Assembly (NCBI RefSeq): GCF_009914755.1
Contig: NC_060940.1
Origin: the human T2T-CHM13v2.0 reference genome, Homo sapiens
Length of the DNA stretch: 64,000 nucleotides
Direction: 5' to 3' (one strand)
The translations under genes and the position numbers were made by a program. The notes beneath the pieces are model-generated. The model was not told the origin of the DNA. It worked only from the letters and a program-made list of their open reading frames with translations, and did not search any database. Positions 42,841 through 45,600 of the stretch are shown one piece after another (within the stretch, counting starts at the first letter, position 1; each line of letters starts with the position of its first letter).

Positions 42841-45600
42841 TCAGCTCAACCTCCGCCTCTTGGGTTCGGGTAATGATGGTTCCACGTCAGCGGCCCTCCG
42901 CCTCTTGGGTTTGCGTGACGGTTCCACGTCACCGACCCTCCGCCTCTTGGGTTCGGGTGATGATGGTTCCACGTCAGCGGCCCTCCGCCTCTTGGGTTTG
43001 CGTGACGGTTCCACATCACCGACCCTCCGCCTCTTGGGTTCGGGTGATGATGGTTCCACGTCAGCGGCCCTCCGCCTCTTGGGTTTGCGTGACGGTTCCA
43101 CGTCACCGACCCTCCGCCTCTTGGGTTCGGGAGGTGGTTCCATCTCAGCCGCCCTCTGCCTCTTGGGTTTGCGTGGTTTTTCTGCCTCAGCCTCCTGAGT
43201 AGCTAAGGGAGGTGTCTTGAGATTATCATCGGCTGAGGGTGGAAGCGGCCCCCGCAGACGCTCGGCAGGTGTCTTGATATTATCATCTGCTGAGGGTGGA
43301 GCTGAGGGTGGAAGGGGAGTGAGCTGACGCTCGGAAGGTGTCTTGAGATTATCATCCGCTGAGGGTGGAAGCGGCCCCCGCAGACGCTCGGCAGGTGTCT
43401 TGATATTATCATCTGCTGAGGGTGGAGCTGAGGGTGGAAGGGGAGTGAGCTGACGCTCGGAAGGTGTCTTGAGATTATCATCCGCTGAGGGTGGAAGCGG
43501 CCCCCGCAGACGCTCGGCAGGTGTCTTGATATTATCATCTGCTGAGGGTGGAGCTGAGGGTGGAAGGGGAGTGAGCTGACGCTCGGAAGGTGTCTTGAGA
43601 TTATCATCCGCTGAGGGTGGAAGCGGCCCCCGCAGACGCTCCCCGCAGACGCTCGGCAGGTGTCTTGATATTATCATCTGCTGAGGGTGGAGCTGAGGGT
43701 GGAAAGGGAGTGAGCTGACGCTCGGAAGGTGTCTTGAGATTATCATCCGCTGAGGGTGGAAGCGGCCCCCGCAGACGCTCGGCAGGTGTCTTGATATTAT
43801 CATCTGCTGAGGGTGGAGCTGAGGGTGGAAGGGGAGTGAGCTGACGCTCGGAAGGTGTCTTGAGATTATCATCTGCTGAGGGTGGAAGCGGCCCCCGCAG
43901 ACGCTCGGCAGGTGTCTTGATATTATCATCTGCTGAGGGTGGAGCTGAGGGTGGAAGGGGAGTGAGCTGACGCTCGGAAGGTGTCTTGAGATTATCATCC
44001 GCTGAGGGTGGAAGCGGCCCCCGCAGACGCTCGGCAGGTGTCTTGATATTATCATCTGCTGAGGGTGGAGCTGAGGGTGGAAGGGGAGTGAGCTGACGCT
44101 CGGAAGGTGTCTTGAGATTATCATCTGCTGAGGGTGGAAGCGGCCCCCGCAGACGCTCGGCAGGTGTCTTGATATTATCATCTGCTGAGGGTGGAGCTGA
44201 GGGTGGAAGGGGAGTGAGCTGACGCTCGGAAGGTGTCTTGAGATTATCATCCGCTCAGGGTGGAAGCGGCCCCCGCAGACGCTCGGCAGGTGTCTTGATA
44301 TTATCATCTGCTGAGGGTGGAGCTGAGGGTGGAAGGGGAGTGAGCTGACGCTCGGAAGGTGTCTTGAGATTATCATCGGCTGATGGTGGAAGCGGAATCC
44401 GCAGACGCTCAGCAGGTATCTTGATATTATCATCTGCTGAGGGTGGAGCTGAGGGTGGAAGGGGAGTGAGCTGACGCTCGGAAGGTGTCTTGAGATCATC
44501 CGCTGAGGGTGGAAGGCAGGTGTCTTGATATTATCATCTGCTGAGGGTGGAGCTGAGGGTGGAAGGGGAGTGAGCTGACGCTCGGAAGGTGTCTTGAGAT
44601 TATCATCCGCTGAGGGTGGAAGCGGCCCCCGCAGACGCTCGGCAGGTGTCTTGATATTATCATCTGCTGAGGGTGGAAGGGCAGTGAGCTGACGCTCGGA
44701 AGGTGTCTTGAGATTATCATCCGCTGAGGGTGGAAGCGGCCCCCGCAGACGCTCGGCAGGTGTCTTGATATTATCATCTGCTGAGGGTGGAGCTGAGGGT
44801 GGAAGGGGAGTGAGCTGACGCTCGGAAGGTGTCTTGAGATTATCATCCGCTGAGGGTGGAAGCGGCCCCCGCAGACGCTCAGCAGGTGTCTTGATATTAT
44901 CATCTGCTGAGGGTGGAGCTGAGGGTGGAAGGGGAGTGAGCTGACGCTCGGAAGGTGTCTTGAGATTATCATCCGCTGAGGGTGGAAGCGGCCCCCGCAG
45001 ACGCTCGGCAGGTGTCTTGATATTATCATCTGCTGAGGGTGGAGCTGAGGGTGGAAGGGGAGTGAGCTGACGCTCGGAAGGTGTCTTGAGATTATCATCC
45101 GCTGAGGGTGGAAGGGGATGGAGCAGACACTCGGCACGTGTCTTGAGATTATCATCCGCTGAGGGTGGAGCTGAGGGTAGAGCTGAGGGTGGAAGGGGAG
45201 TGAGCAGACACTCGGGAGGTGTCTTGAGATTATCATCCGCTGAGGGTGGAAGGGGAGTGAGCAGACACTCAGGAGGTGTCTTGAGATTATCATCCGCTGA
45301 GGGTGGAAGGGGAGTGAGCACACACTCGGGAGGTGTCTTGAGATTATCATCCGCTGAGGGTGGAAGGGGAGTGAGCACACACTCGGGAGGTGTCTTGAGA
45401 TTATCATCCGCTGAGGGTGGAAGGGGAGTGAGCAGACACTCGGGAGGTGTCTTGAGGCTCAGGGAGTTATCAGTTATAGAATGTTGTTGAGTTGGAGGAG
45501 GTGGCTGGTGGCCCATCCTGTTTTTTAAAGTTTCAGCTGTGAGGTAGGGCCAGTAGGGCAATCCTGAAGAATGACGATGCTCCGCTGCCGCCATTCTGAC
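42841..45600 (-). CDS. NPIPB5: NPIPB last coding exon (919 codons + stop), VNTR-encoded proline-rich tail
   Basis: ggccctacag acceptor, then [36 protein letters not shown]...SADDNLKTP repeats...[12 protein letters not shown] 42841..45630. Paralog assigned from adjacency to OTOAP1, so the family is more certain than the paralog number. Confidence 0.88.
42845..43175 (-). repeat. Coding VNTR 2: 87-nt (45+42) unit, [29 protein letters not shown]
   Basis: Eight copies of ctc(c/t)gcctcttgggt on plus strand. Confidence 0.95.
43205..45455 (-). repeat. Coding VNTR 1: 57-nt units grading into a 126-nt (69+57) higher-order repeat
   Basis: Recurrent gtgtcttgagattatcatccgctgagggtggaag; peptide periods of 19, 23 and 42 aa. 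Confidence 0.97.

What the first reader, a model, noticed from the sequence alone, without database searches (positions are those of the whole stretch)
43203..45455. Dual-frame coding VNTR with a two-indel frame switch in the NPIPB last exon
Seen: the unit TCA GCG GAT GAT AAT CTC AAG ACA... is open in frame 0 ([19 protein letters not shown]) and frame +1 ([18 protein letters not shown]). Frame +2 hits TGA TAA in almost every unit. The protein enters frame +1 through a 19-nt deletion of GAGCGTCTGCGGGGGCCGC (junction 44515/44514), with a frame-neutral 3-nt loss near 44495. It returns through a 13-nt tandem duplication of GAGCGTCTGCGGG (43629-43641 and 43642-43654); -19+13 = -6. Both events hit the same motif. 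About 290 codons are thus recoded from an acidic Pro-rich repeat to a His/Ile/Arg/Cys repeat with no new DNA. Without the second indel the protein would stop at TAG 43203 and lose the basic PKRRR tail. Inference: the array is an evolvable two-state protein-domain switch whose boundaries can move by unequal crossover. I recall frame-shifted NPIPB repeats being noted in long-read work, so the exact indel mechanics may be the newer part.
Basis: partly seen in the sequence, partly recalled or inferred. Interest (0 to 1): 0.85.

Follow-up and report, generated by a model that had tools for sequence, protein, structure and literature searches.

The report
Known NPIPB repeat frame switch
The last exon of this human NPIPB gene copy really does read its tandem repeat in one frame, then a second, then the first again because of two fixed compensating indels, but this is an already published and catalogued feature of the gene family.

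Summary
On the minus strand one 931-codon frame (45636..42841) crosses 36 repeat half-units. A 38-nt unit (57−19, junction 44515/44514) moves reading from SADDN… into [10 protein letters not shown]…. A 70-nt unit (57+13, tandem copy at 43629-43654) moves it back after about 291 codons.

It is not new. Dishuck et al. 2025 (PMC12790995) describe the SADDN→MIISR→SADDN switch "within each paralog", with 8,986 Iso-seq molecules and structure predictions. Bekpen et al. 2017 (bioRxiv 10.1101/116087) already attribute the [10 protein letters not shown] repeat to a frameshift mutation at this motif. Pfam PF20885 scores 622 bits on the alternate-frame stretch.

What I add from this assembly:
- All 8 of 8 long-array paralogs keep one entry unit and one exit unit.
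- The +13 exit unit is shared by 8 of 8.
- The −19 entry unit is shared by 7 of 8; one copy has −1 at the homologous unit.
- Segment lengths vary only in 126-nt steps.

So the boundaries look like inherited markers of essentially one origin, not a recurrently re-made switch. A second open frame in one unit is unremarkable (P about 0.27 by shuffling). This "transcribed pseudogene" has an intact 1,133-codon ORF.

The parts
42841..45600 (-). Coding part of the last exon of the NPIPB-type gene. The stop codon is at 42843-42841 and the acceptor AG lies just upstream of 45600.
   Evidence: the open frame 45636..42841 spans the exon, whose annotated start at 45600 follows an AG.
44545..45414 (-). 'Pre' segment: half-units 1-14, read in the ancestral SADDN/PLPPS frame. 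Units 1-5 are the older PPEC-type head units.
   Evidence: phase 0; unit lengths are 57, 69 or 81 nt.
44507..44544 (-). Entry unit: 38 nt, which is a 57-nt unit lacking 19 nt (junction 44515/44514). It shifts reading into frame +1.
   Evidence: The same 38-nt unit is present in 7 of 8 long-array paralogs.
44441..44506 (-). 66-nt unit (69-3, frame-neutral loss at 44495/44494).
   Evidence: It is shared by only 3 of 8 paralogs: this copy, L021 and L023.
43642..44514 (-). Stretch read in the alternate frame ([10 protein letters not shown]... repeat), about 291 codons.
   Evidence: Pfam PF20885 NPB13-l_MII_rpt matches at E 6e-189, 622 bits against a cutoff of 36.
44255..44257 (-). TGA in the ancestral frame inside the alternate-frame stretch. 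In the frame actually read it gives Q>E.
   Evidence: It is shared by 3 of 8 paralogs.
43615..43684 (-). Exit unit: 70 nt, which is a 57-nt unit plus a 13-nt tandem duplication (copies at 43629-43641 and 43642-43654). It returns reading to the ancestral frame.
   Evidence: A 70-nt unit is present in 8 of 8 long-array paralogs.
43237..43614 (-). 'Post' segment: half-units 30-35, back in the SADDN frame.
   Evidence: phase 0.
43203..43205 (-). TAG that would end the alternate frame if the +13 lesion were absent.
   Evidence: ORF 43203..43670.
42850..43175 (-). C-terminal basic repeat (PKRRR..DVEP type). There are 8 PKR(R/Q)R motifs in the translation, and the DNA period is 42/87 nt.
   Evidence: Described as Alu-derived and carrying predicted nuclear localisation signals.
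46961..55403 (-). Five upstream coding exons (55275-55403, 51560-51659, 51252-51447, 47106-47166, 46961-46996). They splice in frame into the last exon.
   Evidence: all have AG/GT splice sites and give a 1,093-codon open frame. The MVKL start exon lies outside the window at window coordinate 65416-65297.

Best explanation
This is the last coding exon of a member of the human-specific long-VNTR NPIPB subfamily (the B3/B4/B5/B11/B12/B13 kind). Its 126-nt tandem repeat (57+69 nt) happens to be open in two of three frames.

Two DNA lesions fixed in an ancestral gene make a compensated frameshift. A deletion equivalent to -1 (here -19) moves ordinary translation into frame +1. A 13-nt tandem duplication (equivalent to +1) moves it back, so the basic PKRRR tail stays in frame. 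No ribosomal recoding is involved, because the frame is continuous in the DNA.

The pair was then inherited by every duplicate of the gene. Since then each of the three segments has grown and shrunk by in-register unequal exchange in steps of one 126-nt period.

Shown here: the lesions, their sharing among paralogs, the intact ORFs and the step size.

Taken from the literature: transcription of this pattern, the age of about 3.1 My, and antibody detection of the tail.

Inferred: the order of events. The -1-type lesion was probably first, because frame +1 stays open to the end of the array, whereas a +1 lesion alone would run into the TGA/TAA of frame +2 within one unit. The recoded stretch was probably short at first and expanded later.
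For: - One continuous 931-codon frame with the phase changing 0>2>0 exactly at the 38-nt and 70-nt units.
- A 13-nt tandem repeat found independently by TRF.
- The last-exon frame is intact in 8 of 8 long-array paralogs (810-936 codons), each with exactly one entry and one exit. The +13 unit is in 8 of 8 and the -19 unit in 7 of 8. The shared marker unit one period after the entry is in 8 of 8. None of the short-array NPIP copies with measurable unit lengths (L028-L036) has a 38-, 56- or 70-nt unit.
- The 8 long-array copies form one clade on flanking DNA, with support 100/100.
- Segment sizes differ only by multiples of 2 half-units, even among copies whose 3-kb gene-body stretches differ at 0-4 sites.
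- Frame +2 has 4 stops per period.
- Pfam PF20885 matches at 622 bits.
- Literature passages read: the frame switch occurs in each paralog with 8,986 Iso-seq molecules. A frameshift mutation at this motif converts the PLPPSA repeat to the [10 protein letters not shown] repeat, and an antibody to the tail peptide stains NPIPB.
- The whole gene here is intact: MVKL start plus 6 further exons gives 1,133 codons.
Against: - No protein-level evidence was obtained here. One paper states that all PeptideAtlas peptide evidence for the family mapped to NPIPB6, a different subfamily, and the 2025 paper says proteomic support is sparse.
- RefSeq labels this copy a transcribed pseudogene.
- Variant counts give no sign of purifying selection on the alternate frame. 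In the alternate segment 3 of 16 variant types are synonymous in the frame that is read, against 8 of 15 in the ancestral-frame segments. The power is very low: stop-creating opportunity is 13 of 378 substitutions, so about 0.55 stops are expected among 16 variants and 0 were seen.
- Strict single origin is not fully met. One paralog (L024, chr16:29.664 Mb) has a -1 lesion instead of -19, and its polarity is unresolved.
Confidence: 0.9

Rival explanations
1. One reading: the array is an evolvable two-state switch. New -1 and +1 indels arise repeatedly and are retained in pairs, and the frame boundaries themselves move by unequal crossover.
For: - The lengths of all three segments differ among paralogs. 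This copy and L021 have the same total of 36 half-units, but the entry unit is displaced by one period (pre 14 / alternate 14 against pre 16 / alternate 12).
- One paralog (L024) has a different entry lesion (-1) paired with the same +13. If derived, this would be a second, independent compensation.
- Three indel events and several substitutions fall in the same GC-rich motif.
Against: - The exit unit is the same in 8 of 8 copies. The entry is at the same marker-defined position in 8 of 8 and identical in 7 of 8.
- The displacement between this copy and L021 is explained by one period gained or lost inside the pre segment and one inside the alternate segment. The boundary block (units 9-14-7-3-1-15) is intact in both.
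- No copy has two entries or two exits (0 of 8).
- The motif's DNA hairpin is no more stable than in shuffled sequence (z +0.43 and -0.84), so a structural hotspot is not supported.
Confidence: 0.1
2. This particular copy makes no functional protein. The open frame survives only because the duplication is young and the unit is open in two frames by chance, and the MII stretch is a tolerated accident, not a selected domain.
For: - RefSeq calls the locus a transcribed pseudogene (hub annotation).
- Dual openness of one unit is not improbable (P 0.27).
- There is no excess of synonymous change in the frame read within the alternate segment (3 of 16).
- Peptide evidence in PeptideAtlas mapped only to NPIPB6.
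- AF2 confidence for the MII stretch is low (pLDDT 54.6).
Against: - The ORF is a complete 1,133 codons with intact splice sites and start.
- All 8 of 8 long-array copies are intact.
- The literature reports full-length ORF transcripts, brain-enriched expression, signals of positive selection for B3, B4, B11, B12 and B13, and antibody staining with a tail-directed antibody. None of that evidence is specific to this copy.
Confidence: 0.2
3. The frame change is an assembly artefact, or is achieved during translation (programmed ribosomal frameshifting, or true dual coding of the same nucleotides).
For: None found. The repeat is hard to assemble in principle.
Against: - The same junction units recur at 8 separate loci of the assembly.
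- The [10 protein letters not shown] repeat was seen in cloned cDNA in 2017 and in 8,986 Iso-seq molecules.
- The frame is continuous in the DNA, so no recoding is needed.
- No nucleotide of this ORF is read in two frames. Different copies of the unit are read in different frames.
Confidence: 0.01

Closest known systems
[quoted passage not shown] 2025, Cell Genomics, PMC12790995 (passages read; 4 spreadsheets searched)
   Same: Same gene family, same repeat units and the same SADDN > MIISR > SADDN > tail order. The segment counts here fall within the published ranges, and the MVKL start is the same.
   Different: Nothing essential. This is the T2T-CHM13 copy at chr16:21.68 Mb that RefSeq labels a pseudogene. 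The passages I read do not give the sizes of the two lesions, their sharing among paralogs, or the -1 variant. [quoted passage not shown] My single-sequence AF2 runs gave periodic strands only for the MII frame.
Pfam PF20885, 'Nuclear pore complex-interacting protein B13-like, MII repeat'
   Same: The alternate-frame stretch matches at E 6e-189, 622 bits against a cutoff of 36.
   Different: None. It is a member.
Bekpen et al. 2017, bioRxiv 10.1101/116087, 'Functional Characterization of the Morpheus Gene Family' (passages read)
   Same: [quoted passage not shown] It describes two PLPPSA blocks, 12 MII repeats and 8 PKRRR repeats.
   Different: It says the MII repeat number is fixed at 12 in all NPIPB duplicates. 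In this assembly the alternate segment has 10-14 half-units. I saw no description of the +13 return lesion in its main text, and its figures are not held.
Other frameshift-made repeats in NPIP, Cantsilieris et al. 2020, PMC7419210 (passages read)
   Same: The C-terminal repeats of this family have repeatedly been recoded. A partial AluY insertion plus a frameshift made the NPIPB-specific tail repeat, and an orangutan cassette unit is attributed to an insertion that changes the frame.
   Different: Those events change the frame once and for the rest of the protein. Here a second lesion restores the frame, so an internal block is recoded.

Membership tests
Long-VNTR NPIPB subfamily (B3/B4/B5/B11/B12/B13 kind) | Alternate first coding exon beginning MVKL | tested here: met
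   ATG at window coordinate 65416 (just outside the window, locus L041), 40 codons, then a GTGAG donor. It joins in frame to the exon at 55403.
Long-VNTR NPIPB subfamily (B3/B4/B5/B11/B12/B13 kind) | Expanded last-exon VNTR read SADDN > MIISR > SADDN | tested here: met
   14 + 14 + 7 half-units around the entry unit, with the phase going 0>2>0.
Long-VNTR NPIPB subfamily (B3/B4/B5/B11/B12/B13 kind) | Basic PKRRR..DVEP repeat tail after an Alu-derived junction | tested here: met
   8 PKR(R/Q)R motifs with a 42/87-nt DNA period at 42850-43175. The Alu origin is taken and was not tested here.
Long-VNTR NPIPB subfamily (B3/B4/B5/B11/B12/B13 kind) | Groups with the other long-array copies on non-repeat DNA | tested here: met
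   a clade of 8 with support 100/100 against 7 short-array copies. Which named paralog this copy is was not determined.
Pfam PF20885 NPB13-l_MII_rpt | Score above the curated gathering cutoff | tested here: met
   622.4 bits against a cutoff of 36.
Compensated frameshift (paired indels) | Two indels whose sum is a multiple of 3, an open frame between them, and the ancestral frame on both sides | tested here: met
   -19 and +13 sum to -6, or -9 with the separate -3. About 291 open codons lie between them.
Overlapping / dual-coding gene | The same nucleotides are translated in two frames | tested here: not met
   one continuous ORF in which each nucleotide is read once. Only different copies of the unit are read in different frames.
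Programmed ribosomal frameshifting | The frame change is not encoded in the DNA and requires a recoding signal | tested here: not met
   the frame is continuous in genomic DNA. Slippery sites were not searched for because none is needed.
Left-handed beta-helix fold (as proposed in PMC12790995) | Confident solenoid model with a significant match to solved beta helices | tested here: inconclusive
   the MII stretch gives pLDDT 54.6, pTM 0.53 and 14 periodic strands; the SADDN stretch gives pTM 0.10 and no strands; the best Foldseek E-value is 0.1 with 0 matches at E<=0.001. Many of the weak top rows are GlmU, LpxD and gamma-carbonic anhydrase.

The most novel reading that the evidence does not exclude
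The -1 entry lesion of the chr16:29.664 Mb copy may be a second, independent compensation. In that reading the copy lost the ancestral -19 unit by conversion from a full-length unit, which would truncate the protein at the +13 unit. It was then rescued by a new 1-nt deletion in the same unit. That would be direct evidence that selection maintains the three-block, two-frame architecture and the in-frame basic tail.
Probability: 0.25. Interest if true: 0.5.

Novelty: already known. Interest (0 to 1): 0.25.

Why it matters
[quoted passage not shown] The recoded MII block is a human-specific protein feature. It is a clean natural example of a compensated frameshift that created a long new repeat domain out of existing DNA.

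Because this is already described and catalogued, the present finding mainly confirms it. My additions are small:
- The exit lesion is defined at base level.
- The junction units are shown to be shared by all long-array copies of one complete genome.
- One copy has a variant entry lesion (-1 against -19) whose history could show whether the architecture is under selection.
- A RefSeq 'pseudogene' label does not match the intact 1,133-codon frame.

Tried and rejected
- Polarising -1 against -19 with trees did not work. Trees of 1.4-kb flanks were unresolved inside the clade. The 4.6-kb flank tree nests L024 among -19 copies. However, all 23 supporting sites lie beyond the gene's 3' end, at window-equivalent coordinates 42469 and below. 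Within 5.3 kb upstream of the array the count is 1 site against 1, and a tree of 3 kb of gene body is a polytomy. The polarity is left open.
- Hairpin hotspot: the GCGG-GGG-CCGC hairpin is predicted, but the units fold no better than shuffles (z +0.43 and -0.84). Rejected.
- Selection by frame: the synonymous/non-synonymous counts were uninformative and there is no power for stops.
- Openness of frame +1 in the short ancestral arrays: my segment definition ran past the gene ends, so the stop counts cannot be interpreted. Dropped.
- Foldseek against the PDB gave 0 matches at E<=0.001.
- Searching the window (55404-64000) for the MVKL exon found nothing. It lies just outside the window.
- Literature: searches. 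The three peptide strings occur only in the 2017 preprint and the 2025 paper, of about 8.4 million texts searched.
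Full report
**1. The observation**

The region lies on the minus strand in the last exon of the annotated NPIPB13-like locus. The ORF listing with no start requirement gives one uninterrupted frame, 45636..42841, of 931 codons. 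Its translation runs through SADDN(L/I)KTP...PLPP repeats, changes at ...[24 protein letters not shown]... into a [10 protein letters not shown]...FHPQ repeat, and changes back at ...[21 protein letters not shown].... It ends in a basic PKRRR..DVEP repeat.

Cutting the array at every SADD anchor gives 36 half-units of 57 or 69 nt, with one of 81 nt. Three units depart from these lengths:
- Unit 15 (44544-44507) is 38 nt.
- Unit 16 (44506-44441) is 66 nt.
- Unit 29 (43684-43615) is 70 nt.

The phase of the anchors is 0 up to unit 15, 2 for units 16-29 and 0 afterwards. Tandem Repeats Finder independently finds a perfect 13-nt repeat of 2.1 copies at 43628-43654. The alternate frame would end at TAG 43205-43203. 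Per 126-nt period, frames 0, +1 and +2 hold 0, 0 and 4 stops.

**2. Is it more than chance?**

The two lesions are facts of the sequence. The second open frame is less remarkable than 291 codons suggests, because it is one unit copied. Given an open frame 0, a 126-nt period of this composition has an open frame +1 in 27% of mononucleotide shuffles, 81% of codon-order shuffles and 5.5% of uniform synonymous resamplings (20,000 trials each).

**3. What is known**

- Dishuck et al. 2025 (PMC12790995, passages read) state that the final coding exon of B3, B4, B5, B11, B12 and B13 holds an expanded VNTR. [quoted passage not shown] - Bekpen et al. [quoted passage not shown] They raised an antibody against the tail peptide that stains NPIPB.
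- Pfam holds the alternate-frame repeat as PF20885. It matches here at 622 bits against a cutoff of 36.
- The three peptide strings I searched occur only in those two works.

The phenomenon, its transcription and the entry mechanism are therefore in print. I did not find the size or nature of the return lesion in what I could read. There were 0 hits for '19 bp' and '13 bp' in the 2025 main text. There were 0 hits for 'frameshift', 'MIISR' or 'deletion' in its 4 readable spreadsheets. Its three supplementary PDFs and the preprint's figures could not be read.

**4. Test of the 'movable switch' idea within this genome**

The assembly is held, and a DNA search finds 8 long-array copies on the same chromosome. 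I fetched the last exon of the other seven and of 13 shorter copies and decomposed them in the same way.

- All 8 of 8 long arrays keep an open frame through the exon (810-936 codons).
- All 8 of 8 have exactly one entry and one exit.
- The exit is a 70-nt unit in 8 of 8: six are identical, and the other two differ from them by 1 and by 3 substitutions.
- The entry is the 38-nt unit in 7 of 8.
- In all 8 the entry unit stands one period before a distinctive marker unit.
- The nine short arrays whose unit lengths could be measured (L028-L036) have no 38-, 56- or 70-nt unit. Of the other four fetched, L037 had a single anchor and L038-L040 had none.
- The -3 unit, the unit with TGA in the ancestral frame and a 57-nt variant of the long unit are shared by only 3 of 8 copies: this one, L021 and L023.
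- Segment sizes (half-units) are pre 11-16, alternate 10-14 and post 5-11, always differing by multiples of two.
- They differ even among copies whose 3 kb of gene body differ at 0-4 sites.

So the array changes length fast, in register, inside each segment. The boundaries themselves are inherited markers.

**5. The one exception**

The copy at chr16:29.664 Mb (L024) has a 56-nt unit (-1) at the entry position instead of the 38-nt unit. Removing 18 nt from it gives exactly the 38-nt unit. There are two possible histories:
- The original lesion was -1 and an in-frame -18 followed.
- The original lesion was -19, and this copy was refilled and re-compensated.

The 4.6-kb flank tree nests L024 among -19 copies, which would favour the second history. 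However, all 23 supporting sites lie beyond the gene's 3' end. Inside the gene the count is 1 site against 1, and a 3-kb gene-body tree is unresolved. Interlocus gene conversion is reported as frequent between nearby NPIPB copies, and the nearest neighbour of L024 is about 100 kb away. I leave the polarity open.

**6. Mechanism**

The frame change is written in the DNA, so ordinary translation follows it. A lesion equivalent to -1 puts reading into frame +1, which is open through the array to the TAG at 43203. A lesion equivalent to +1 alone would put reading into frame +2, which has 4 stops per period. I therefore infer that the -1-type lesion came first, giving a protein without the basic tail, and that the +13 duplication restored the tail. 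This ordering is inference, not shown.

The tail carries the predicted nuclear localisation signals according to the 2017 preprint. That offers a plausible reason for keeping it in frame.

**7. Is the recoded block functional?**

- The composition changes from acidic and proline-rich (pI 4.9) to basic, with many His, Ile, Arg and Ser residues (pI 12.0).
- AF2 without an alignment gives the 310-residue stretch containing the MII block a periodic model with 14 short strands, one per half-unit. The pTM is 0.53 but the mean pLDDT is only 54.6.
- A 206-residue SADDN stretch gives pTM 0.10 and no strands.
- Foldseek finds no significant match (best E 0.1). Many of the weak top rows are left-handed beta-helix enzymes.

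This agrees in kind with the published beta-helix proposal for the MII frame only, and only weakly.

Variant counts show no purifying selection on the alternate frame: 3 of 16 variant types are synonymous there, against 8 of 15 in the ancestral-frame segments. The power is negligible. A stop in the ancestral frame occurs only where that frame is not read (1 event, shared by 3 copies). Peptide evidence for this subfamily is lacking in what I read.

**8. The 'pseudogene' label**

The annotated exons in the window all have AG/GT boundaries and splice into a 1,093-codon open frame. The MVKL start exon lies at window coordinate 65416, just outside the window, with 40 codons and a GTGAG donor. The locus therefore has an intact 1,133-codon ORF, and I found no lesion that explains the label.

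**9. Verdict**

The feature is already known and catalogued. The residual new points are minor: the +13 exit, the sharing of the junction units among all long-array copies, the -1 variant, and the intact ORF of a so-called pseudogene.

Noticed in passing
window 42686-55403 (-), plus the start exon at window coordinate 65416-65297 (locus L041): The locus that RefSeq labels a 'transcribed pseudogene' has an intact ORF of 1,133 codons: an MVKL start, six further exons, all AG/GT splice sites and no internal stop.
   Followed up: yes
L024 (chr16:29,661,000-29,668,500), 13th half-unit of the array: This paralog enters the alternate frame through a 56-nt (-1) unit instead of the 38-nt (-19) unit of the other seven copies. 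It also has the most private unit variants: 10 unit types seen nowhere else among the 8 arrays.
   Followed up: partly
window 41145-42469 compared with 43180-50786: Divergence changes sharply just past the gene's 3' end. The two groups of long-array copies differ at 34 fixed sites in about 1.3 kb downstream of the gene (23 + 11). They differ at only about 6 fixed sites in 5.3 kb upstream of the array (4 of them in the 3-kb gene-body stretch). This suggests a duplicon or gene-conversion boundary near 42.5 kb.
   Followed up: partly
window 43420-43545 (-): In this sequence the 23-residue unit is [23 protein letters not shown] and the 19-residue unit is [19 protein letters not shown]. The sentence in PMC12790995 attaches the SAPP extension to the other unit. 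This is a trivial discrepancy.
   Followed up: no
window versus L021 (chr16:21.338 Mb): The two copies are identical over 3 kb of gene body and 1.4 kb on each flank, and have the same array total (36 half-units, 931 codons). They differ by one period more in the pre segment and one fewer in the alternate segment. Array length therefore mutates much faster than point substitution.
   Followed up: partly
window 63076-64000 and beyond: The NPIPB start exon at 65416 lies inside the span annotated as the last exon of an SMG1-like gene model on the same strand (63076-65454). The two predicted models therefore overlap.
   Followed up: no
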